Shown here one piece after another: positions 3,830-27,049 of a stretch of DNA of 33,600 nt (position 1 is its first letter; each line of letters begins with the position of its first letter). Position numbers and translations under genes: made by a program. This DNA is from a virus (taxonomy: Duplodnaviria; Heunggongvirae; Uroviricota; Caudoviricetes): the IMG/VR virus record IMGVR_UViG_2534681900_000010; one strand, 5' to 3'. Below the pieces are notes generated by a model, which had not been told where the DNA came from, did no database searches, and saw only the letters and a list, made by a program, of their open reading frames with translations.

Positions 3830-4101
3830 GTATTCGTATTGAAATTGGCGAACGTTATGTCGTTACCAGTGACAGCTTTCAGTTTATTCTCCACGAGAAA
3901 AAGAGAGCGGAAAGCGGTAAAAACGCCGGTCAGGAATGGCTGGCGGTGGTTGGTTATTACCCGAAATTAAGCCAGCTCGTTTCCGGCCTGATGCATCACG
4001 ATATTCTGACCGGAAGCGCAAAGTCTTTTGCTGATTTAAACGCGCAGGTTGAGCAACTCAGCAGGCGTTGTTCAGAGGCTTTTGGCTCATATGGCCGTTA
4101 A
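3826..4101 (+). CDS. Hypothetical early protein (91 aa)
   Basis: ORF whose stop (4099-4101) overlaps the A start codon region. No motif recognised. Confidence 0.5.
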   Translation: MSIRIEIGERYVVTSDSFQFILHEKKRAESGKNAGQEWLAVVGYYPKLSQLVSGLMHHDILTGSAKSFADLNAQVEQLSRRCSEAFGSYGR

Positions 4102-6400
4102 AGCCTCCGGGCGTTTTGTCCCTCCGTCAGCATTTGCCGCAGGCACCGGTAAGACGTTTACCGGTGCTTATGCATGGAACGCGCCACGCGAGGCTGTCGG
4201 GCGCGAAAGACCCCTTACACGTGACGAGATGCGTCAGGTGCAAGGTGTTTTATCCACGATTAACCGCCTGCCTTACTTTTTGCGCTCGCTGTTTACTTCA
4301 CGTTATGACTACATCCGGCGCAATAAAAGCCCGGTGCACGGGTTTTATTTCCTCACATCCACTTTTCAGCGTCGTTTATGGCCGCGCATTGAGCGTGTGA
4401 ATCAGCGCCATGAAATGAACACCGACGCGTCGTTGCTGTTTCTGGCAGAGCGTGACCACTATGCGCGCCTGCCGGGAATGAATGACAAGGAGCTGAAAAA
4501 GTTTGCTGCCCGTATCTCATCGCAGCTTTTCATGATGTATGAGGAACTCTGCGATGCCTGGGTTGATGCACATGGCGAAAAAGAATCGCTGTTTACGGAT
4601 GAGGCGCAGGCTCACCTCTATGGTCATGTTGCTGGCGCTGCACGTGCTTTCAATATTTCCCCGCTCTACTGGAAAAAATACCGTAAAGGACAGATGACCA
4701 CGAGGCAGGCATATTCTGCCATTGCCCGCCTGTTTAACGATGAGTGGTGGACTCATCAGCTTAAAGGCCAGCGTATGCGCTGGCATGAGGCGTTACTGAT
4801 TGCTGTCGGGGAGGTCAATAAAGACCGTTCTCCTTATGCCAGTAAACATGCCATTCGTGATGTGCGTGCACGCCGCCAGGCAAATCTGGAATTTCTTAAA
4901 TCGTGTGACCTCGAAAACAGGGAAACCGGCGAACGCATCGACCTTATCAGTAAGGTGATGGGCAGTATTTCTAATCCTGAAATTCGCCGGATGGAGCTGA
5001 TGAACACCATTGCCGGTATTGAGCGTTACGCCACCGCAGAGGGTGATGTGGGGATGTTTATCACGCTGACCACGCCGTCAAAGTATCACCCGACACGTCA
5101 GGTCGGAAAAGGCGAAAATAAAACCGTCCAGCTTAATCACGGCTGGAACGATGAGGCATTTAATCCAAAGGATGCGCAGCGTTATCTCTGCCGTATCTGG
5201 AGCCTGATGCGCACGGCATTCAAGGATAATGACTTACAGGTCTACGGTTTGCGTGTCGTCGAGCCACACCACGACGGAACGCCGCACTGGCATATGATGC
5301 TTTTTTGTAATCCACGCCAGCGTAACCAGATTATTGAAATCATGCGTCGCTACGCGCTCAAAGAGGATGGAGACGAAAGAGGAGCCGCGCGAAACCGTTT
5401 TCAGGCAAAACATCTTAACCGGGGCGGTGCTGCGGGGTATATCGCGAAATACATCTCAAAAAACATCGATGGCTATGCACTGGATGGTCAGCTCGATAAC
5501 GATACCGGCAGGCCGCTGAAAGATACTGCTGCGGCTGTTACCGCATGGGCGTCAACGTGGCGCATTCCGCAATTTAAAACGGTTGGTCTGCCGACAATGG
5601 GGGCTTACCGTGAACTACGCAAATTGCCTCGCGGCGTCAGCATTGCTGATGAGTTTGACGAGCGCGTCGAGGCTGCACGCGCCGCTGCAGACAGTGGTGA
5701 TTTTGCGTTGTATATCAGCGCGCAGGGCGGGGCAAATGTCCCGCGCGATTGTCAGACTGTCAGGGTCGCCCGTAGCCCGTCGGATGACGTTAACGAGTAC
5801 GAGGAAGAGGTCGAGAGAGCGGTCGGCATTTACGCGCCGCATCTCGGCGCGCGTCATATTCATATCACCAGAACGACGGACTGGCGCATTGTGCCGAAAG
5901 TTCCGGTCGTTGAGCCTTTGACTTTAAAAAGCGGCATCGCCGCGCCTCGGAGTCCTGTCAATAACTGTGGAAAGCTCACCGGTGGTGATACTTCGTCACC
6001 GGCTCCCACGCCTTCTGAACACGCCGCAGCAGTGCTTAATCTGGTAGATGACGGTGTTATTGAATGGAATGACCCGGTGGTCGTGAGGGCGCTCAGAGGC
6101 GCATTAAAATACGGCCTGAGAAGACCAAACCGTCAGCAAAGAAACGGAATACCGTTAAAACCGCATGAAATAGCACCATCGGCCAGGCTGACCCGGTCAG
6201 AACGAATGCAAATTACCCGTATCCGTGTTGACCTTGCTCAGAACGGTATCAGGCCTCAGCGATGGGAGCTTGAGGCGCTGGCGCGTGGGGCGACCGTAAA
6301 TTATGACGGGAAACAATTTACGTATCCGGTTGCTGATGAGTGGCCGGGATTTTTACAAACAGAAATTGTTTTTGGGATTAATAAGTTATCTCTAAGCTAA
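4091..6400 (+). CDS. A: Replication initiation endonuclease A (rolling-circle initiator)
   Basis: 769-aa product beginning MAVKASGRFVPPSAFAAGTGK..., recalled as highly similar to P2 gpA. ORF-track ORF 4049..6400 is trimmed to the ATG at 4091. Confidence 0.9.
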   Translation: MAVKASGRFVPPSAFAAGTGKTFTGAYAWNAPREAVGRERPLTRDEMRQVQGVLSTINRLPYFLRSLFTSRYDYIRRNKSPVHGFYFLTSTFQRRLWPRIERVNQRHEMNTDASLLFLAERDHYARLPGMNDKELKKFAARISSQLFMMYEELCDAWVDAHGEKESLFTDEAQAHLYGHVAGAARAFNISPLYWKKYRKGQMTTRQAYSAIARLFNDEWWTHQLKGQRMRWHEALLIAVGEVNKDRSPYASKHAIRDVRARRQANLEFLKSCDLENRETGERIDLISKVMGSISNPEIRRMELMNTIAGIERYATAEGDVGMFITLTTPSKYHPTRQVGKGENKTVQLNHGWNDEAFNPKDAQRYLCRIWSLMRTAFKDNDLQVYGLRVVEPHHDGTPHWHMMLFCNPRQRNQIIEIMRRYALKEDGDERGAARNRFQAKHLNRGGAAGYIAKYISKNIDGYALDGQLDNDTGRPLKDTAAAVTAWASTWRIPQFKTVGLPTMGAYRELRKLPRGVSIADEFDERVEAARAAADSGDFALYISAQGGANVPRDCQTVRVARSPSDDVNEYEEEVERAVGIYAPHLGARHIHITRTTDWRIVPKVPVVEPLTLKSGIAAPRSPVNNCGKLTGGDTSSPAPTPSEHAAAVLNLVDDGVIEWNDPVVVRALRGALKYGLRRPNRQQRNGIPLKPHEIAPSARLTRSERMQITRIRVDLAQNGIRPQRWELEALARGATVNYDGKQFTYPVADEWPGFLQTEIVFGINKLSLS

Positions 6401-6522: not shown

Positions 6523-7569
6523 ATGGCGGTAAAAGTTGTTGATCTTTTTTGCGGTGCTGGCGGTTTAACGCACGGCTTACATTTGGCCGGATTGGACGTT
6601 GTCGCAGGCATTGATTTAGAAGGTGAGTGTCGTGTTGCATACGAAAGCAATAATGATGCACTTTTTATTGAAAAAGATATATCTCTGGTGACAAAAGATG
6701 AAATCGAAAATCTTTTTGAAGGGGCAAGTGTTAAAGTATTGGCCGGATGTGCACCTTGTCAGCCATTTTCTAAATATACTCAGGGAAAAGATAAAAAAAA
6801 TGATAAAAAGTGGCCGTTATTATATGAGTTTGAACGTTTAATAAAAGACACGAAACCAGAAATAGTTACAATGGAAAACGTTCCTGATGTGACAAAACAT
6901 TCTGTCTATGATGATTTTTATAATACCTTAATAGCATTGGGTTATTATGTTTGGGCAAATAAGATTGAATGTGTAGATTTTGAGGTTCCGCAAAACAGAG
7001 TGAGGCATGTATTACTCGCATCTAAATTTGCGCCGATTTCTCTGATGAAACCACAAACATCGGTAAAGCTGACAGTTAGGGATTGCATTGGTAATTTACC
7101 TTCGATTGAAGCGGGACAAGCAGATCCAAAAGACCCTCTCCATAAGGCGAGTAGATTGAGTGAAATTAATCTCAAACGTATTCTACATTCAAAACCGGGG
7201 GGGACATGGAGGGATTGGCCTGCTGAATTAATCGCTTCATGTCATGCCAAGAAAAGTGGGCAGGGATATGCCAGTGTTTATGGTCGTATGTCTTGGGATA
7301 AACCGAGTCCAACGATAACTACACTTTGTTATGGTTTTGGTAATGGACGTTTTGGTCATCCCGAGCAGCATCGTGCAATCTCACTTAGGGAAGCAGCATT
7401 ACTTCAAACGTTTCCTGTTACATATTCATTTACCCAACCGGGCGAGCCGATCAAAATGAAAAATGTCGGGCGTATGATAGGTAATGCTGTTCCTGTAAAC
7501 TTAGGTAAAGCGATTGGTCTTTCAATAGTACATCATTTGAAAGAGTTTCACCCCGCCGCTCTTAAATAA
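6523..7569 (+). CDS. DNA (cytosine-5)-methyltransferase
   Basis: All canonical C5-MTase motifs are present in order: DLFCGAGG (motif I, AdoMet), GCAPCQPFS (motif IV, catalytic Cys), TMENVPDV (motif VI), VPQNRVRHVLL (motif VIII), MIGNAVPVNLGKAIG (motif X). Visibly AT-rich relative to the phage backbone. Confidence 0.9.
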   Translation: MAVKVVDLFCGAGGLTHGLHLAGLDVVAGIDLEGECRVAYESNNDALFIEKDISLVTKDEIENLFEGASVKVLAGCAPCQPFSKYTQGKDKKNDKKWPLLYEFERLIKDTKPEIVTMENVPDVTKHSVYDDFYNTLIALGYYVWANKIECVDFEVPQNRVRHVLLASKFAPISLMKPQTSVKLTVRDCIGNLPSIEAGQADPKDPLHKASRLSEINLKRILHSKPGGTWRDWPAELIASCHAKKSGQGYASVYGRMSWDKPSPTITTLCYGFGNGRFGHPEQHRAISLREAALLQTFPVTYSFTQPGEPIKMKNVGRMIGNAVPVNLGKAIGLSIVHHLKEFHPAALK

Positions 7570-8267
7570 GCCTGAGTATCAAGATAAGTTTGTATATTTT
7601 CAAGGATGCAGTTGAGATAATGAAAAACTTCATCCTTCATTTCTGTTAGTGTATCAATAGATGTATCTCTGCCTTTGTTTCTAAATGATTCAGAACCATG
7701 AGCAAGGTCGTTTCTGGCCTTTTTTATTGGAAGTAAATTGCAACCATTTCGCGTTATTTCTGAATCTGTATCTGCTGAGAAGCCATATTTTTCAGCGACT
7801 TCTCTAATTTTTCTAGCGTCAACATTTCCAGAAAATAACGGATTTTTATTTGATTGGATAAGTTTTTTGTGAGCGTTTAGCCACTCTTTAAATATAACTT
7901 TTGCAATGTTCCCTTGTGAGAAATCTATTTTCCCATTTGGTGATTGTAAACTATGAAATGCTACTCTTGTAAGGTTTTCATTTACAGTGTCTGCACATAA
8001 TGATTCATTAGACATTAAAACATTATGAATGTCTTCTATTGCATTGGAAATGGTTGCTTCAATGAGATTGTACAATATAATAAATGCATTAGCCTTTAAA
8101 ATATGAGTCATATCAATATCAATGGGTTGTTGTATAGGCGCATCGCTTGTATTCTCTTTATAGACTAGAGATGGTTTTTTGTTTATTAGTAACTGAATGA
8201 ATGAGAAGTATTCATTAATATCTTGCATTCTTTCTTGGAAAAGAATTTTACTTGTCATCTCCTCCAT
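7548..8267 (-). CDS. HEPN-like predicted RNase (239 aa), second gene of the DUF262 operon
   Basis: Rx4H motif in KKARNDLAHGSESF near the C-terminal third. Start ATG is 10 nt downstream of the DUF262 gene stop; its 3' end overlaps the convergent MTase by 22 bp. AT-rich. Confidence 0.6.
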   Translation of the reverse strand: MEEMTSKILFQERMQDINEYFSFIQLLINKKPSLVYKENTSDAPIQQPIDIDMTHILKANAFIILYNLIEATISNAIEDIHNVLMSNESLCADTVNENLTRVAFHSLQSPNGKIDFSQGNIAKVIFKEWLNAHKKLIQSNKNPLFSGNVDARKIREVAEKYGFSADTDSEITRNGCNLLPIKKARNDLAHGSESFRNKGRDTSIDTLTEMKDEVFHYLNCILENIQTYLDTQAYLRAAG

Positions 8268-8277
8268 TTACTTGGCC

Positions 8278-9423
8278 TCACTCCATATTTTCATCTTCAT
8301 TTTCATCTTCGTCGACAATATTTTCTGGAATGTCTTTCCCAAGCAACTTGTTTTTTACATATTCAATGCGTGCTTTAACTTTGGGTTTAGAGTTGCTGGC
8401 ATCTGAACGTGTGTGCGTGATAAACTCTTTCGAGTTGATCCAGTCATCAATATTTTTAGGAACTAAATTGGGTTCTTCCTCTAGTGCTAATGTTGCACCG
8501 ACGGCAAGAGCTTCGAAACGAATCCTAGGAACAGTGGTGGCGTTTTTCACCTTTCTGAAACCATTTGGGAAATGTGTATTAATGAATTGGCTCATTTTAT
8601 GAAATTTTTCCGCCAGCATAGCTGCGTTTTCATCTGTATATTCGGCATTTTTACGTTTTAAATAGGTTGTAAGAAATTCATCAACGCTTTTTCTGAAATC
8701 AAGATATTCTTCAGTGTAGGCAAAGTAGCGTAGTGCCAATTCTGGATATTCAGAGCGACGTTTTCTTGCATCTCCCAAAGGACAGATGCTATGAAATAGA
8801 GGATCTTCGGAAATTTCATTGATAAATGCAAGGAATGGCCCATCATGGCTACCTTGCCGTTGTTCCATTGTTGTTAGTTTTTTTCCGCCAGTATTCAGAC
8901 GGTCAAAAATTTCCCTTCTTGTCTCTTCGTCACAATGTTCTGTAAGTTCAATCATTCGAATAGTTTTTCTATCAAAACGTAGGCGACGGGGAGTACTGAA
9001 ATCAGAATATTTAAAACCATTGGCTGTGACTAATTTCTGCAGGCCTTCAAGAGTTAGTTTGTTATTGGTAAATTGGTGTAGGGTTCTTATTCGTTGGCTA
9101 CCGTCAACAATTTCAAGTCTACCTTCATTTTCACCTGAACCAATATCGGCAACGAATATGTAAGGTATAGGAAGATTTAAAAGCAGAGATTCAATGAAAC
9201 GGGATTTTTGCTTGTTGTTCCAGATAAACTCCCTTTGGTAGTCAGGTATAAAAAGCTCTGCCTCATCTTCTTCAAGACCATTCTGAAATTTGTCCACAAT
9301 AACACTTATCGGGAACTCACGTATTTCATGGTCAGTGATTTTTTGCATTTCAACTATGCTTTGATCTAAAAGCTCCTTTTCTTCTTTAGTTTTTGGGGTA
9401 TGTTCTGCTTTTTTTCTCGCCAT
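8278..9423 (-). CDS. DUF262 (ParB/GmrSD-N-like) domain protein (381 aa)
   Basis: N-terminal region ...FIPDYQREFIWNNKQKSRFIESLLLNLPIPYIFVADIGSGENEGRLEIVDGSQRIRTLHQF contains the DGxQR signature of DUF262. Acidic C-terminal tail (DEDENEDENME). RBS AGGAT about 10 nt upstream. AT-rich. Confidence 0.7.
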   Translation of the reverse strand: MARKKAEHTPKTKEEKELLDQSIVEMQKITDHEIREFPISVIVDKFQNGLEEDEAELFIPDYQREFIWNNKQKSRFIESLLLNLPIPYIFVADIGSGENEGRLEIVDGSQRIRTLHQFTNNKLTLEGLQKLVTANGFKYSDFSTPRRLRFDRKTIRMIELTEHCDEETRREIFDRLNTGGKKLTTMEQRQGSHDGPFLAFINEISEDPLFHSICPLGDARKRRSEYPELALRYFAYTEEYLDFRKSVDEFLTTYLKRKNAEYTDENAAMLAEKFHKMSQFINTHFPNGFRKVKNATTVPRIRFEALAVGATLALEEEPNLVPKNIDDWINSKEFITHTRSDASNSKPKVKARIEYVKNKLLGKDIPENIVDEDENEDENME

Positions 9424-9750: not shown

Positions 9751-10785
9751 TCAGTCGTTGTCAGTGTCCAGTGAGTAGTTTTTAAAGCGGATGACCTCCT
9801 GACCGAGCCAGCCGTTTATCTCGCGGATCCTGTCCTGTAGCGGGATAAGCTCATTGCGGACAAAGACCTTTGCCACTTTCTCAATATCACCCAGCGACCC
9901 GACGTTCTCCGGCTTGCCGCCCATCAACTGAAAGGGGATGCGGTGCGCGTCCAGCAGGTCAGCGGCACTGGCTTTTTTGATATTAAAAAAATCGTCCTTC
10001 GTCGCCACTTCACTGAGGGGGATAATTTTAATGCCGTCGGCTTTCCCCTGCGGGGCATAGAGAAACAGATTTTTAAAGTTATTGCGGCCTTTCGACTTAA
10101 CCATGTTTTCGCGAAGCATTTCGATATCGTTGCGATCCTGCACGGCATCGGTGACGTACATGATGTATCCGGCATGTGCGCCATTTTCGTAATATTTGCG
10201 GCGGAACAGCGTGGCCGACTCATTCAGCCAGGCAGAGTTAAGGGCGCTGAGATATTCCGGCAGGCCGTACAGCTCCTGATTAATATCCGGCTCCAGCAGG
10301 TGAAACACGGAGCCGGGCGTGAAGGCTGTCGGCTCGTTGAAGGACGGCACCCACCAGTAAACATCCTCCTCCACACCACGGCGGGTATATTTTGCCGGTG
10401 AGGTTTCCAGTCTGATGACCTTACCGGTGGTGCTGTAACGCTTTTCCAGAAACGCATTACCGAACACGAGAAAATCCAGCACAAAGCGGCTGAAATCCTG
10501 TTGCGAAAGCCACGGATGCGGGATAAATGTCGAGGCCAGAATATTGCGTTTGACGTAAATCGGCGAGCTGTGATGCACGGCAGCACGCAGGCTTTTCGCC
10601 AGACCGGTAAAGCTGACCGGCGGCTCATACCATCTGCCGTTACTGATGCACTCGACGTAATCCAGAATGTCACGGCGGTCGAGTACCGGCACCGGCTCAC
10701 CAAAGGTGAATGCCTCCATTTTCGGGGCGCTGGCGGTCATTTTTTTTGCCGCAGGTTGCGGTGTTTTCCCTTTTTTCTTACTCAT
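9751..10785 (-). CDS. Q: Portal (capsid vertex) protein
   Basis: 344 aa, the size recalled for P2 gpQ. Adjacent to cos and divergent from O. Start overlaps the P stop. Confidence 0.9.
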   Translation of the reverse strand: MSKKKGKTPQPAAKKMTASAPKMEAFTFGEPVPVLDRRDILDYVECISNGRWYEPPVSFTGLAKSLRAAVHHSSPIYVKRNILASTFIPHPWLSQQDFSRFVLDFLVFGNAFLEKRYSTTGKVIRLETSPAKYTRRGVEEDVYWWVPSFNEPTAFTPGSVFHLLEPDINQELYGLPEYLSALNSAWLNESATLFRRKYYENGAHAGYIMYVTDAVQDRNDIEMLRENMVKSKGRNNFKNLFLYAPQGKADGIKIIPLSEVATKDDFFNIKKASAADLLDAHRIPFQLMGGKPENVGSLGDIEKVAKVFVRNELIPLQDRIREINGWLGQEVIRFKNYSLDTDND

Positions 10786-17492: not shown

Positions 17493-17905
17493 TGATTGTG
17501 CTGGTCGTGTTGTTATCGCTGGCGGTGGCCGGTCTGTTTCTGGCGAAGCACAAAAATGCCAGCCTGCGCGCCTCGCTGGACAGGGCGAATAACGTCGCCA
17601 GTGAACAGCAGACGACCATCACCATGCTGAAAAATCAGCTTCATGTTGCCATCACCAGGGCAGACAAAAACGAGCTGGCGCAGGTGGCACTGCGTCAGGA
17701 ACTGGAGAACGCCGCGAAGCGTGAAGCACAGCGCGAGAAAACCATCACGAGGTTACTCAATGAAAACGAAGATTTTCGCCGCTGGTACGGTGCTGACCTG
17801 CCTGATGCTGTGCGCCGGTTGCACCAGCGCCCGGCCTGCGCAGACGCCAGTGATTGTCCACAACGCCTGCCCGAAAGTGAGCCTTTGCCCGATGCCGGGC
17901 AGTGA
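17480..17905 (+). CDS. lysB: Spanin inner-membrane subunit (Rz-like) LysB
   Basis: 141 aa with an N-terminal transmembrane helix (MSKLMIVLVVLLSLAVAGLFLA) and a coiled-coil-like periplasmic part. Confidence 0.8.
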   Translation: MSKLMIVLVVLLSLAVAGLFLAKHKNASLRASLDRANNVASEQQTTITMLKNQLHVAITRADKNELAQVALRQELENAAKREAQREKTITRLLNENEDFRRWYGADLPDAVRRLHQRPACADASDCPQRLPESEPLPDAGQ

Positions 17906-24186: not shown

Positions 24187-24714
24187 ATGCAGCATTTGAA
24201 AAATATTACGGCGGGTAATCCAAAAACGGTTGAACAATATCAATTGACAAAGGGTTTTGATGTTGTCTGGTTTTTTTCAGAAGATGGTAAGAACTGGTAC
24301 GAAGAACAAAAGTATTTTGCTGATGACACGATAAAAATAGCGTACGACAAAGATAATATTATCCGCTATGTGGAAAAGGATGTGACAGCTATCAGACCGG
24401 ATGGATTAAGTGTTGTTGAAGTGGCGGATATTACTGCTAACCGACGGGCGGACATTTCAGGGGGCTGGATGTTTAAGGACGGCAAAGTGATTAAACGCAT
24501 TTATACGGCAGAGGAATTGCTGCAGCAGGCAGAAAACCGGAAAGCCAGACTTCTTGCAGATGCTGAATCCGTGATTTTGCCGCTGGAGCGCGCGGTCAGA
24601 CTGAACATGGCAACAGATGAGGAGCGTAGCCGACTGGATGCATGGGAGCGTTACAGCGTTCTGGTCAGTCGTGTGGATCCTGCAAATCCTGAATGGCCGG
24701 AAATGCCGCAATAA
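24187..24714 (+). CDS. G: Tail fibre assembly chaperone
   Basis: 175 aa immediately after H; size and position as recalled for P2 gpG. Confidence 0.85.
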
Positions 24715-24935
24715 GTTGTATGATCTCTGGAGTGAGCAAACGTATCTATGGCACAGAGTAAAGCCTAATCTGACAGGCCGCTCTGTGTCTGGAGTAGATT
24801 TTAGTAAAGCATTATTTTATTAGTGCAAATTCTAATCAATACATTTTATGTATATGATATCCTGCAGACTTTAATGACTTGGTTTAGGCTAACCAGATAA
24901 CACTGAAGGAATATTTTTGATAATTAAGGTGCGGT

Positions 24936-25529
24936 ATGTTTACTAAGCGACGATTAAAAAATATTAACTGGGAGGCAAGTTCAGTGATTCTTGCTATGGT
25001 TCTCTTTGTTGGAAATATATTTTATACAAATCATCGTGATGATATAAGCATGGAGGCTGAGAGGGACAGTATCAGAACAATGTTTGCATATGAAATCGCT
25101 AATAACCATCGCGCTCTCACTTTTCTTGATAAAACGAGATATATTGGCTTTGACGAAAATTCGGAGCATTTTGTTGGCGAGCCTTTTGCCATTAATGTCA
25201 AATCATTAGGGGGGCCTCGCTTACAGATTGCATTAAACCAGAGTGATAAAGTGTTTAAATCCTACTTCAGCGAATTAAGTAAGCTTGATAAAGAGGATGT
25301 TACTCTTCTTATGGACTATTACCATGAGCAAAGCATCCTGCTGGAGCGTGTAAAATCTACGTTACAGAAGATGAAAAGTGGTAATGATATTAAAGTTGAT
25401 ATTGATGGTTACTTATTAGAAGAACACTTCATGAATGAGCTTAATCTTTCTAATATTTTGCTTAAACGCTATAGCCATTTGTTGTCACAACACGCCAAAG
25501 AACATAAAACAAAAGATTTACATAATTGA
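24936..25529 (+). CDS. Hypothetical membrane-anchored protein (197 aa) at the Z/fun accessory locus
   Basis: AT-rich ORF between G and FI. RBS AAGGTG 6 nt upstream. N-terminal hydrophobic segment SSVILAMVLFVGNIFY after a basic MFTKRRLK start. No recognisable catalytic motif. Confidence 0.6.
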   Translation: MFTKRRLKNINWEASSVILAMVLFVGNIFYTNHRDDISMEAERDSIRTMFAYEIANNHRALTFLDKTRYIGFDENSEHFVGEPFAINVKSLGGPRLQIALNQSDKVFKSYFSELSKLDKEDVTLLMDYYHEQSILLERVKSTLQKMKSGNDIKVDIDGYLLEEHFMNELNLSNILLKRYSHLLSQHAKEHKTKDLHN

Positions 25530-25735
25530 TAATCTGCTAATGGTTATTCATGGGGTAACTATGTTTTATATGTAATCCAACTCAGATGAATTATTGATTC
25601 TGGATAATAACCGCAGAGCGGCATATACCCTGACAGGCAAATGTCCGCTTCTTGTTCAAAGCAGACCGTCAGATTTGATAACTTTTGGGCTATGTAAATT
25701 GTCAGTCGGAAAATGAGTGAGTTCAAATCAGGACA

Positions 25736-25759
25736 GGCGGGCGAATTGCCCGCCTTTTC
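25736..25759 (+). terminator. Rho-independent terminator
   Basis: GGCGGGC-gaatt-GCCCGCC hairpin followed by TTTTCTTT. Confidence 0.7.
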
Positions 25760-25858
25760 TTTATCTGTTGTTTCATCCACTGACCAGCCAGGTCAAATAG
25801 CGTCTCATGCTCTGCACAACAGAAAATAGTTGCACCCATTAACCACGGAGTTAAACGG
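25760..25858 (+). promoter_or_regulatory. Putative late promoter region for the FI operon
   Basis: Position only (upstream of FI, downstream of a terminator). An Ogr-type site was not convincingly identified by eye. Confidence 0.35.
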
Positions 25859-27049
25859 ATGAGTGACTATCATCACGGCGTGCAGGTGCTGGAGATTAAC
25901 GACGGCACCCGCGTCATTTCCACCGTATCCACCGCCATTGTTGGCATGGTCTGCACGGCCAGCGATGCGGATGCGGAAACCTTCCCCGTCAATAAACCGG
26001 TGCTGATCACCAATGTGCAGAGCGCGATTGCAAAGGCCGGTAAAAAAGGCACGCTGGCGGCATCGTTGCAGGCCATCGCTGACCAGTCAAAACCGGTCAC
26101 CGTTGTCGTGCGCGTGGAAGACGGCACCGGCGACGACGAAGAAACGAAACTCGCGCAGACCGTTTCCAATATCATCGGCACCACTGACGAAAACGGTCAG
26201 TACACCGGACTGAAAGCCCTGATGGGCGCAGAGTCGGTTACCGGCGTTAAACCGCGCATTCTCGGCGTACCGGGACTGGACACCAAAGAGGTGGCGGTTG
26301 CACTGGCATCGGTATGCCAGGAACTGAATGCCTTCGGGTATATCAGCGCATGGGGCTGTAAAACCATTTCCGAGGCAAAAGCCTACCGTCAGAATTTCAG
26401 TCAGCGTGAGCTGATGGTCATCTGGCCGGATTTCCTTGCATGGGATACGGTCACCAGTACCACCGCCACCGCGTATGCCACCGCCCGTGCGCTGGGGCTG
26501 CGTGCCAGAATCGACCAGGAGCAGGGCTGGCATAAAACGCTGTCCAACGTCGGGGTAAACGGTGTTACCGGCATCAGCGCATCTGTATTCTGGGATTTGC
26601 AGAAGTCTGGCACTGATGCTGACCTGCTGAACGAGGCAGGCGTCACAACGCTGGTTCGCCGCGACGGTTTCCGTTTCTGGGGTAACCGTACCTGCTCCGA
26701 TGACCCACTTTTCCTCTTTGAAAGCTACACACGTACCGCGCAGGTACTGGCCGACACGATGGCTGAGGCGCACATGTGGGCTATTGATAAGCCCATCACC
26801 GCAACGCTGATTCGCGACATCATTGATGGCATCAATGCCAAATTCCGCGAACTGAAAAACAACGGTTATATCGTGGATGGCACATGCTGGTTCAGTGAAG
26901 AAGCCAACGATGCGGAAACCCTCAAGGCCGGAAAACTGTATATCGACTACGACTATACACCGGTGCCTCCTCTCGAAAACCTGACCCTGCGCCAGCGTAT
27001 TACTTCAAGATACCTGGCAAGTCTGGTCACCTCGGTTAACAGCAATTAA
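25859..27049 (+). CDS. FI: Tail sheath protein
   Basis: 396 aa; size and position as recalled for P2 gpFI. Confidence 0.9.
   Translation: MSDYHHGVQVLEINDGTRVISTVSTAIVGMVCTASDADAETFPVNKPVLITNVQSAIAKAGKKGTLAASLQAIADQSKPVTVVVRVEDGTGDDEETKLAQTVSNIIGTTDENGQYTGLKALMGAESVTGVKPRILGVPGLDTKEVAVALASVCQELNAFGYISAWGCKTISEAKAYRQNFSQRELMVIWPDFLAWDTVTSTTATAYATARALGLRARIDQEQGWHKTLSNVGVNGVTGISASVFWDLQKSGTDADLLNEAGVTTLVRRDGFRFWGNRTCSDDPLFLFESYTRTAQVLADTMAEAHMWAIDKPITATLIRDIIDGINAKFRELKNNGYIVDGTCWFSEEANDAETLKAGKLYIDYDYTPVPPLENLTLRQRITSRYLASLVTSVNSN

What the first reader, a model, noticed from the sequence alone, without database searches (positions are those of the whole stretch)
24715..25858. Unknown 197-aa membrane-anchored protein at the Z/fun hotspot between G and FI
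In P2 the G-to-FI interval carries Z/fun, which blocks phage T5, and it is a second variable cargo site. Here an AT-rich stand-alone gene (24936..25529) with its own RBS, an N-terminal hydrophobic anchor and a following terminator occupies the site. I recognise no domain in it. It is a candidate single-gene superinfection-exclusion or abortive-infection protein.
Basis: partly seen in the sequence, partly recalled or inferred. Interest (0 to 1): 0.6.

Follow-up and report, generated by a model that had tools for sequence, protein, structure and literature searches.

The report
Uncharacterised membrane-anchored prophage cargo protein
A P2-like prophage carries, at its known second cargo site, a swappable one-gene cassette for a small inner-membrane protein of unknown function; it is probably a phage-exclusion factor, but nobody has tested that.

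Summary
ORF 24936..25529 (+, 197 aa) is real, AT-rich (35% GC against 51% for the window), has a Shine-Dalgarno site and one N-terminal hydrophobic helix, and lies between gpG and tail sheath FI. It matches no Pfam, NCBIfam or PADLOC model. Its only match is PHROG 3829, "unknown function".

Two corrections. The variable cargo is 24788..~25642. The "following terminator" (25735-25755) belongs to the conserved P2 backbone.

New points:
- **Cassette:** it is bounded by 19-nt inverted repeats.
- **Frequency:** it occurs in 201 of 5426 complete E. coli genomes.
- **Other settings:** homologues sit in P4-like satellites, a lambdoid prophage, plasmids and a conjugative element. Distant ones lie beside TIR, KAP-NTPase, putAbiC and Cap4 genes.
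- **Selection:** dN/dS is about 0.14.
- **Structure:** AlphaFold (pLDDT 83) gives a transmembrane helix continuing into a generic four-helix bundle. Charge distribution predicts that the bundle faces the periplasm.

Best reading (about 0.38): a single-gene exclusion factor acting at the inner membrane. This is inferred, not shown. Two published phages carrying the gene (AC1, SIDE7) gave no reported phenotype attributable to it on an eight-phage panel without T5.

It is a reasonable cloning candidate in a known hotspot, not a surprise.

The parts
24187..24714 (+). gpG-type tail fibre assembly gene; left conserved flank
   Evidence: PF02413 Caudo_TAP, E 3.1e-34; annotated 'tail fiber assembly protein' in identical records.
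24750..24789 (+). Conserved backbone hairpin just after G (GGCACAGAG...CTCTGTGTC). It has no adjacent T run, so it is not a canonical terminator.
   Evidence: RNA fold of 24700-24830: -36.8 kcal/mol, z = -2.8. Sequence is shared with 9W, 11W and Wphi up to 24787.
24767..24785 (.). Left inverted repeat (IR-L), AATCTGACAGGCCGCTCTG, bounding the cargo
   Evidence: the repeat finder pair I1: 19 nt, 79% complementary to 25657-25675, 871 nt apart. Agrees with the literature statement that fun is flanked by inverted repeats (PMC8987985 citing Nilsson 2004).
24788..25642 (+). Variable cargo cassette (about 855 bp, AT-rich, one gene)
   Evidence: Limits come from alignment with P2, 9W, 11W, Wphi and a Yersinia phage that carry other cargo; GC 0.33-0.41.
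24830..24858 (+). Candidate own sigma-70 promoter, TTCTAA-17-TATGAT (8 of 12 matches); inferred only
   Evidence: Relaxed scan. The 36-bp block 24828-24863 is 83% identical upstream of the 68%-identical Pantoea homologue, although dS is about 1.4. The standard scan found only a weaker-placed site at 24897-24924.
24926..24931 (+). Shine-Dalgarno site, AAGGTG
   Evidence: Read directly from the sequence; an AAGG/GAGG is kept at the same place in homologues.
24936..25529 (+). 197-aa ORF; PHROG 3829; named 'lysogenic conversion protein' or 'hypothetical protein' in RefSeq
   Evidence: dN/dS 0.135-0.144 against Salmonella, Pantoea and Enterobacter homologues.
24972..25028 (+). Residues 13-31: single transmembrane anchor. 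The N-flank is +4/0 and the C-flank +2/-5, so the N-terminus is predicted in the cytoplasm and the C-terminal domain in the periplasm.
   Evidence: AlphaFold places it at the start of one continuous helix 12-66 that projects from the bundle.
25071..25106 (+). Residues 46-57: family signature IRTMFAYEIANN on the juxtamembrane helix (R47 and N57 invariant; A51, E53, I54 nearly so)
   Evidence: Alignment of 27 members down to 19% identity.
25643..25666 (.). 24-nt conserved core GTCCGCTTCTTGTTCAAAGCAGAC at the right border, with arms GTCCGCT / AGCAGAC
   Evidence: With 5 or fewer mismatches it is at the right border of every P2-like locus fetched, whatever the cargo. It is also beside homologues in a plasmid (both sides, inverted), a Pantoea island and a conjugative element. 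Chance expectation over all loci is 0.04.
25657..25675 (.). Right inverted repeat (IR-R), CAAAGCAGACCGTCAGATT
   Evidence: the repeat finder pair I1.
25735..25755 (+). Intrinsic terminator in the conserved P2 backbone (not cargo-specific)
   Evidence: 9-bp stem, 7 G-C pairs, T run; conserved in P2 and all P2-like loci compared.
25763..25835 (+). Late promoter pF region (activator site to transcription start). Coordinates are approximate, transferred from the P2 annotation.
   Evidence: P2 record features 17555-17583 and 17626-17628, mapped through alignment A4.
25859..27049 (+). Tail sheath gene FI; right conserved flank
   Evidence: PF04984, PF17482 and PF22671.

Best explanation
The gene is a mobile, single-gene cargo cassette of a P2-like prophage. 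It encodes a type II (N-in, C-out) inner-membrane protein: a short basic cytoplasmic tail, one transmembrane helix, and a periplasmic four-helix bundle of about 165 residues with no catalytic motif. The most likely role is exclusion of incoming mobile DNA, chiefly other phages, at the inner membrane. In this model the bundle, and especially the invariant juxtamembrane surface (IRTxxAYEIxxN), binds a host inner-membrane component or an ejected phage protein and blocks genome entry after adsorption. Shown: the gene is real and under purifying selection; it has a conserved hydrophobic anchor; it sits in an inverted-repeat-flanked cassette at a known cargo hotspot; and its family is restricted to mobile elements, often next to defence genes. 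Inferred: the topology, expression in the lysogen from its own promoter, and the exclusion function itself.
Against: No experiment addresses this protein. There is no homology to any characterised exclusion or defence protein. E. coli C lysogens of AC1 and SIDE7, which carry the gene, showed no reported protection attributable to it against lambda, T4, P1, 186, CLB_P2, LF82_P8, AL505_P2 or T7. That panel was small, lacked T5, and H-NS silencing was not excluded. No consensus-strength promoter was found, so the gene may be transcribed mainly by read-through of the late V-W-J-I-H-G operon. The hydropathy of the anchor (1.54) is close to the usual transmembrane threshold, and the topology rests on the positive-inside rule alone. 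The hotspot also holds non-defence cargo.
Confidence: 0.38

Rival explanations
1. It is an abortive-infection or membrane effector. The protein would oligomerise through its helical bundle and permeabilise the inner membrane when triggered. It would act alone in P2 and P4, or as the effector partner of a cytoplasmic sensor (TIR, KAP NTPase) in distant relatives.
For: Distant homologues lie 39 bp downstream of a coiled-coil TIR gene on the same strand, with a terminator after the pair, in 6 E. coli genomes. Another lies 45 bp downstream of a 593-aa KAP/AAA_22 NTPase in a P2-type portal-proximal hotspot. TIR plus transmembrane-protein systems are active at the other P2 hotspot in phage AC1 (PMC9122126), and single-pass membrane proteins are common presumed effectors.
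Against: The bulk of the protein is predicted to be periplasmic, with only a 10-30 residue cytoplasmic tail. That fits poorly with activation by a cytoplasmic nucleotide signal. All six TIR-linked copies are at least 99.6% identical at the nucleotide level, so the pairing is one event, not a recurrent architecture. A KAP-NTPase alone is a single-gene system ('Reve', PMC13586616), so adjacency may only reflect hotspot packing. Most members are solo genes.
Confidence: 0.2
2. It is a lysogenic-conversion factor unrelated to phage defence. As an envelope protein it would change host physiology (stress tolerance, colonisation, or interaction with a eukaryotic host or competing bacteria), as lambda Bor and Lom do.
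For: RefSeq names it 'lysogenic conversion protein'. The name has no traceable experimental basis, and no NCBIfam model matches. The G-FI site also carries non-defence cargo such as an alpha/beta hydrolase plus an MFS pump. The other P2 hotspot is known to carry toxins and partition systems. No anti-phage phenotype was reported for lysogens carrying the gene. Many carrier strains are human extraintestinal isolates.
Against: The family also lives in plant-associated Pantoea and Kosakonia, in satellites and in plasmids, so there is no host-niche signal. Its neighbours are defence genes rather than virulence genes in the distant members.
Confidence: 0.2
3. It is a late-expressed phage function. 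The gene would be transcribed by read-through from the late tail operon and act during lytic growth, for example to stop secondary infection of an already infected cell, or to stop progeny injecting into lysing cells or debris.
For: It is on the same strand as the tail genes. The hairpin after G lacks a T run. The first strong terminator downstream of G is at 25735-25755, after the gene. In P2 the annotated V-operon terminator lies inside the variable region.
Against: Homologues work in settings with no late tail operon (P4-like satellites, plasmids, islands) and keep their own upstream block and Shine-Dalgarno site. The gene is absent from about 80% of otherwise similar P2-like prophages, so it is not needed for the lytic cycle.
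Confidence: 0.1
4. It is a decaying or non-functional ORF carried along with the cassette.
For: There is no known domain. Among close E. coli variants dN/dS is 0.72 (window against AC1). Truncated and IS-interrupted copies exist.
Against: Over longer distances dN/dS is about 0.14, with length, transmembrane helix, motif and Shine-Dalgarno site conserved down to 19-30% identity. The structure prediction is confident. 569 member sequences form one 90% cluster.
Confidence: 0.04

Closest known systems
P2 Fun(Z) (AAD03288.1), the T5-blocking lysogenic-conversion gene at the same G-FI site
   Same: Same insertion site between gpG and FI; AT-rich non-essential cargo; bounded by the same conserved right-hand element and inverted repeats.
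   Different: Fun(Z) is 527-528 aa and on the opposite strand. It shows no sequence similarity (best BLASTP E 3.2) and has no Pfam domain either. Its function, blocking T5, has not been tested for the 197-aa protein.
Membrane-anchored superinfection-exclusion proteins of temperate phages (from my own knowledge: HK97 gp15, P22 SieA, T4 Imm/Sp, lactococcal Sie2009; from a paper: e14 YmfE)
   Same: Small single genes in prophage cargo positions, AT-rich, with an N-terminal membrane anchor and no enzymatic domain, acting (in the characterised cases) after adsorption at the inner membrane.
   Different: No detectable sequence or specific fold relationship. Exclusion activity, target phages and expression in the lysogen are all untested here.
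PD-T4 / PD-T7 / PD-lambda systems and HEC candidates found in P2 hotspots (Vassallo 2022, Rousset 2022; PADLOC-DB v2)
   Same: Same kind of genomic address: three PD systems map to this second P2 hotspot.
   Different: No PADLOC model matches the protein even at E up to 10. It is not one of them.
Four-helix-bundle periplasmic sensor domains (4HB_MCP of Tar/Tsr/PcaY, sensor kinase periplasmic domains)
PHROG 3829
   Same: Full-length match 1-197 of 197, E 5.7e-137; the protein is a member.
   Different: The PHROG is annotated 'unknown function', so membership adds no functional information.

Membership tests
PHROG 3829 (phage protein family, unknown function) | Full-length profile match | tested here: met
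   E 5.7e-137, residues 1-197 on profile positions 1-197 of 197.
P2 Fun(Z) | Sequence homology to Fun(Z) | tested here: not met
   BLASTP best E 3.2 over 19 residues.
P2 Fun(Z) | Blocks growth of phage T5 when cloned | not testable with these tools
   Needs a plating assay. The published lysogen panels that included carriers of this gene lacked T5.
Z/fun-site cargo cassette of P2-like phages (Nilsson 2004, as summarised in PMC8987985) | Located between gpG and FI and flanked by inverted repeats | tested here: met
   Flanking genes identified. The 19-nt inverted repeats 24767-24785 and 25657-25675 are 79% complementary. The right-hand core is conserved across cargo types. Literature statement.
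Known anti-phage defence systems (PADLOC-DB v2.0, including PD-T4/T7/lambda, HEC, PDC) | Match to any component model | tested here: not met
   0 families at E up to 10.
Superinfection-exclusion membrane proteins (functional class) | Non-essential gene at a variable site of a temperate phage | tested here: met
   Present in 201 of the 1018 E. coli genomes that hold the conserved flank, and in 13 of 67 phage records. Other phages carry other cargo at the site.
Superinfection-exclusion membrane proteins (functional class) | Membrane anchoring with the bulk of the protein outside the cytoplasm | tested here: inconclusive
   Prediction only: one conserved hydrophobic helix, positive-inside charge bias in 26 of 27 members, and paired cysteines in the C-terminal domains of distant members. 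No dedicated topology predictor or experiment was available.
Superinfection-exclusion membrane proteins (functional class) | Expressed from the repressed prophage | tested here: inconclusive
   Only a weak promoter-like site (8 of 12 matches), though it is conserved with the gene in another setting. No transcript data.
Superinfection-exclusion membrane proteins (functional class) | Blocks genome entry of a superinfecting phage without blocking adsorption | not testable with these tools
   Requires adsorption and DNA-entry assays.
Two-gene TIR or NTPase plus transmembrane-effector defence systems | An obligate partner gene in the same cassette | tested here: not met
   The cargo 24788-25642 holds one credible ORF. 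Partners occur only beside distant homologues, and the TIR pairing is a single lineage.
4HB_MCP / periplasmic four-helix-bundle sensor domains | Profile match, and a bundle bracketed by two transmembrane helices with a cytoplasmic output module | tested here: not met
   No Pfam hit for any of the 27 members. There is a single transmembrane helix and no output domain. Fold similarity is generic.
Moron (autonomous promoter-gene-terminator unit of deviant composition; Juhala/Hendrix sense) | Deviant base composition, own promoter, own terminator | tested here: inconclusive
   Composition is met. The terminator belongs to the backbone. The promoter is only inferred.

The most novel reading that the evidence does not exclude
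The family could be a previously unrecognised, portable 'entry-exclusion' module: a periplasm-facing, single-pass four-helix-bundle protein that rides in an inverted-repeat-bounded cassette. It would be shared by helper phages (P2-like), their satellites (P4-like), lambdoid phages, plasmids and conjugative elements, and would block DNA entry of rival mobile elements generally. Alternatively it could act as a periplasmic sensor of injection that couples to TIR or NTPase partners in some lineages. A gene shared between P2 and P4 hotspots would also be one of the rare exceptions to the reported near-absence of such sharing (PMC13586616).
Probability: 0.15. Interest if true: 0.7.

Novelty: new member of a known kind. 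Interest (0 to 1): 0.42.

Why it matters
If it is an exclusion or defence factor, it would add a new sequence-orphan family to the set of single-gene membrane defences. These are poorly covered by DefenseFinder- and PADLOC-type tools. It would also assign a function to a gene present in about 4% of complete E. coli genomes, many from clinical lineages, and so affect predictions of phage susceptibility for therapy. The cassette structure gives a concrete handle on how cargo is swapped at the P2 Z/fun site: conserved inverted repeats that also accompany homologues in plasmids, islands and a conjugative element. If no phenotype is found, it is one more unannotated prophage cargo gene.

Tried and rejected
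- **Shallow alignment for structure:** AlphaFold with 20 close homologues gave pLDDT 55 and was not used for fold search. Adding 12 distant representatives raised it to 83.
- **Profile against PDB sequences:** nothing below E 0.08.
- **Pfam on all 27 family members:** only scattered single-member noise.
- **NCBIfam:** a single sub-threshold hit (TIGR04078, 14 bits against a cut-off of 300), rejected. The RefSeq name 'lysogenic conversion protein' therefore has no model behind it that I could find.
- **Late promoter upstream of the gene:** the only TGT-N12-ACA dyad nearby (25349) is inside the ORF.
- **Rfam on 24600-25900:** only chance-level hits.
- **Partner ORF in the cassette:** the small ORFs (25435-25575 +, 25559-25780 -, 25594-25716 +) overlap the gene or cross the cargo/backbone border. 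I judged them spurious.
- **Related loci:** With the close alignment it returned only 2 genome loci.
- **Supplements:** searches of the two main hotspot papers for the protein's peptides found nothing or no held files.
- **Nilsson 2004:** the paper itself is not held, so I cite it only through a review's summary.
- **Xer/dif idea:** I considered reading the right border as a dif- or cer-like site. By eye only about 7 of 11 positions matched the XerD arm, so I dropped it.

Full report
**1. What is there**

The window is a P2-like prophage. The ORF at 24936..25529 (+, 197 aa) exists as described. It lies between a gpG-type tail-fibre assembly gene (24187..24714, PF02413) and the tail sheath gene FI (25859..27049). 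GC falls to 0.33-0.41 across the interval, against 0.55-0.59 in the tail genes. The ORF is 35% GC and the window 51%. A Shine-Dalgarno sequence (AAGGTG, 24926-24931) precedes the ATG and is kept in homologues.

**2. True limits of the cargo**

I compared the interval with P2 (fun(Z)), 9W, 11W, Wphi and a Yersinia P2-like phage, all of which carry other cargo.

- The sequence after G is conserved backbone up to 24787. This stretch includes a stable hairpin (z = -2.8).
- Backbone resumes at 25630-25644.
- The variable cargo is therefore about 24788..25642.
They are also present in P2, where fun(Z) is on the other strand.

The cargo is bracketed by 19-nt imperfect inverted repeats: 24767-24785 and 25657-25675, 79% complementary.

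A 24-nt core at the right border (25643-25666) recurs with 5 or fewer mismatches in every P2-like locus fetched, whatever the cargo. It also recurs beside homologues outside P2:

- on both sides, in inverted orientation, in an Enterobacter plasmid;
- in a Pantoea island;
- next to a 19-26%-identical homologue in a conjugative element.

Only 0.04 chance hits are expected over all loci. This agrees with a review's summary of Nilsson et al. [quoted passage not shown]

**3. How common it is**

- The 1144-bp interval is 100% identical in Peduovirus P24B2 and full-length in 13 of 67 matching phage records.
- It is full-length in 201 of 5426 complete E. coli genomes, out of 1018 that carry the conserved flank.
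- RefSeq calls the protein either 'hypothetical' or 'lysogenic conversion protein'. No NCBIfam model matches it, and I found no experimental basis for the name.

**4. The protein family**

There is no Pfam, NCBIfam or PADLOC match. PHROG 3829, 'unknown function', matches over the full length.

A word-indexed search found 38 clusters, all Enterobacterales, at 52-98% identity. An exhaustive profile search of 1.84 billion representatives found only 28 at E ≤ 0.001, so the family is small.

An alignment of 27 members down to 19% identity keeps three things:

- a basic N-terminus;
- one hydrophobic helix;
- a signature IRTxxAYEIxxN directly after it, with R47, N57 and L117 invariant.

dN/dS is 0.135-0.144 against the Salmonella, Pantoea and Enterobacter homologues, so it is a real, constrained gene.

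**5. Structure and topology**

The first AlphaFold run, with close homologues only, was poor (pLDDT 55). With the divergent alignment it reached pLDDT 83.3 and pTM 0.72. The model has one continuous helix 12-66, in which the transmembrane segment runs into helix 1. A loop follows, then helices 92-100, 105-116, 119-148 and 151-178.

- Borrelia OspC.

None reaches E ≤ 0.001 in the Foldseek searches. The fold says 'binding or oligomerisation module, no enzyme' and nothing more.

The N-flank is net positive in 26 of 27 members, and the exception is N-terminally truncated. Five of the distant members have exactly two cysteines in the C-terminal domain. In three of them (P0058, P0064, P0068) these form a CxxxxC pair at the C-terminus. 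I infer an N-in, C-out orientation with the bundle in the periplasm. This is prediction only.

**6. Genomic company of homologues**

| Homologue | Setting |
|---|---|
| Pantoea ananatis, Kosakonia, one IMG/VR contig | Directly after the primase of P4-like satellites, a site listed as a minor P4 defence hotspot (PMC13586616) |
| Salmonella | End of a lambdoid prophage, next to a DNA methylase and DUF4928 |
| Pantoea sp. | Small AlpA island |
| Enterobacter | IncFII plasmid |
| Distant member, in 6 near-identical E. coli genomes | 39 bp downstream of a coiled-coil TIR gene |
| Distant member | 45 bp downstream of a KAP/AAA_22 NTPase in a portal-proximal P2-type hotspot |
| Proteus (distant) | Next to a putAbiC gene |
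| Distant member | Next to a Cap4 nuclease |
| Distant member | Among tra genes of a conjugative element |

The upstream 36-bp promoter-like block (TTCTAA-17-TATGAT, 24830-24858) is 83% identical in the Pantoea island copy, although synonymous sites are saturated. This suggests the gene travels with its own expression signals.

**7. What is already known about the site**

- P2's fun(Z) blocks T5.
- Vassallo et al. found three new systems at this 'second defence-enriched locus' (PMC9519451).
- The iLund4u study calls it a mixed-purpose hotspot.

My small survey agrees with the mixed picture:

| Phage | Cargo at the G-FI site |
|---|---|
| 9W | 250-251-aa unknown, minus strand |
| Wphi | orf44, 299 aa |
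| 11W | Gene remnants |
| Yersinia phage vB_YpM_115 | Alpha/beta hydrolase plus an MFS pump |

The 197-aa protein is unrelated to Fun(Z).

**8. Indirect experimental evidence**

Two of the four P2-like phages isolated by Rousset et al. carry this gene:

- AC1: intact copy, 95% amino-acid identity;
- SIDE7: 99.6% nucleotide identity.

Their E. coli C lysogens were challenged with lambda, T4, P1, 186cIts, CLB_P2, LF82_P8, AL505_P2 and T7. Only AC1 was reported to protect (against lambda and LF82_P8), and the cloned TIR plus transmembrane system from the other hotspot reproduced that (PMC9122126).

So no phenotype attributable to this gene was seen. The caveats are these:

- the negative results are implicit;
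- the panel was small and lacked T5;
- AT-rich prophage genes can be silenced by H-NS. e14 YmfE, a membrane protein, blocked T5-like phages only once H-NS silencing was removed.

**9. Interpretation**

- **Best reading (0.38):** a single-gene, inner-membrane-anchored, periplasm-facing exclusion factor that blocks entry of rival mobile DNA.
- **Rivals:** a triggered membrane effector or abortive-infection protein (0.20); a non-defence lysogenic-conversion envelope factor (0.20); a late function expressed by read-through of the tail operon (0.10); a non-functional ORF (0.04).

Composition, conservation, architecture, cassette structure and genomic context are shown. Topology, expression in the lysogen and function are inferred.

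**10. Verdict**

The gene is a known sequence family (PHROG 3829) of unknown function in a known hotspot. If the reading is right, it is a new member of a known kind. Interest is moderate: it is a well-defined, common and cheap-to-test candidate, not a surprise.

Noticed in passing
window 24767-24785 and 25657-25675; core 25643-25666; also L005 5784 (-) and 6606 (+), L009 6709, L058 5769 (-): The Z/fun-site cargo is bounded by 19-nt imperfect inverted repeats in conserved backbone. A 24-nt core (GTCCGCTyyTCGCTCAAAGCAGAC) with co-varying arms also accompanies homologues of the gene in a plasmid, an island and a conjugative element (chance expectation 0.04). It looks like a cassette-exchange site; the recombinase is unknown.
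   Followed up: partly
window 24770-24778 and 25630-25638: An exact 9-nt direct repeat, CTGACAGGC, lies at both edges of the cargo. The left copy is in the loop of the backbone hairpin. About 0.06 such matches are expected by chance between two 130-bp windows, so it is suggestive only.
   Followed up: partly
window 6523-9423 (between replication gene A, 4049-6400, and portal Q, 9751-10785): The other P2 hotspot (old/tin position; GC 0.36-0.42) of the same prophage carries a C5 cytosine DNA methylase (6523-7569 +), a HEPN MAE_28990-type protein (7548-8267 -) and a GmrSD_N/DUF262 protein that matches PADLOC NsnA and PD-T4-2_A (8278-9423 -). This looks like a PD-T4-2-like pair plus a methylase.
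   Followed up: partly
L010 5090-6657 (E. coli LR778142.1; six E. coli genomes): A 290-aa coiled-coil TIR protein is followed 39 bp later by a 218-aa distant homologue (29% identity) of the 197-aa protein. A terminator follows the pair, and it lies next to an integrase. It may be a two-gene TIR plus single-pass membrane protein system, but all copies are at least 99.6% identical, so the pairing is one lineage.
   Followed up: partly
L055 2172-4585 (IMG/VR contig 641736172_000003): A 593-aa KAP/AAA_22 P-loop NTPase lies directly upstream (45 bp) of a 32%-identical homologue, just after terminase and portal genes, that is, at the P2-type portal-proximal hotspot.
   Followed up: no
L004 5402-6001, L008 6001-6591, L054 4001-4579: Homologues at 61-62% identity sit directly after the primase of P4-like satellites (Psu, AlpA, ASH, DUF5375, primase). 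The same family thus occurs in both P2 and P4 cargo sites, although a 2026 study reports that P2 and P4 almost never share defence genes.
   Followed up: partly
window 25723-25839 (-) and equivalents in 9W, 11W and PhiR44_1: Several deposited P2-like genomes annotate a 38-45-aa 'FIG00643520 hypothetical protein' on the minus strand. It lies inside the conserved terminator/pF-promoter backbone upstream of FI and is probably an annotation artefact.
   Followed up: no
NZ_CP090319.1 (hit H32): In one E. coli genome the interval is split by an IS1 insertion (two pieces; an IS1-family transposase is annotated under the match).
   Followed up: no
L022 32-2461 (Yersinia phage vB_YpM_115): The same G-FI site carries an alpha/beta hydrolase (PETase/DLH-like) and an MFS 'NepI' efflux pump, so the hotspot is not restricted to defence cargo.
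   Followed up: no
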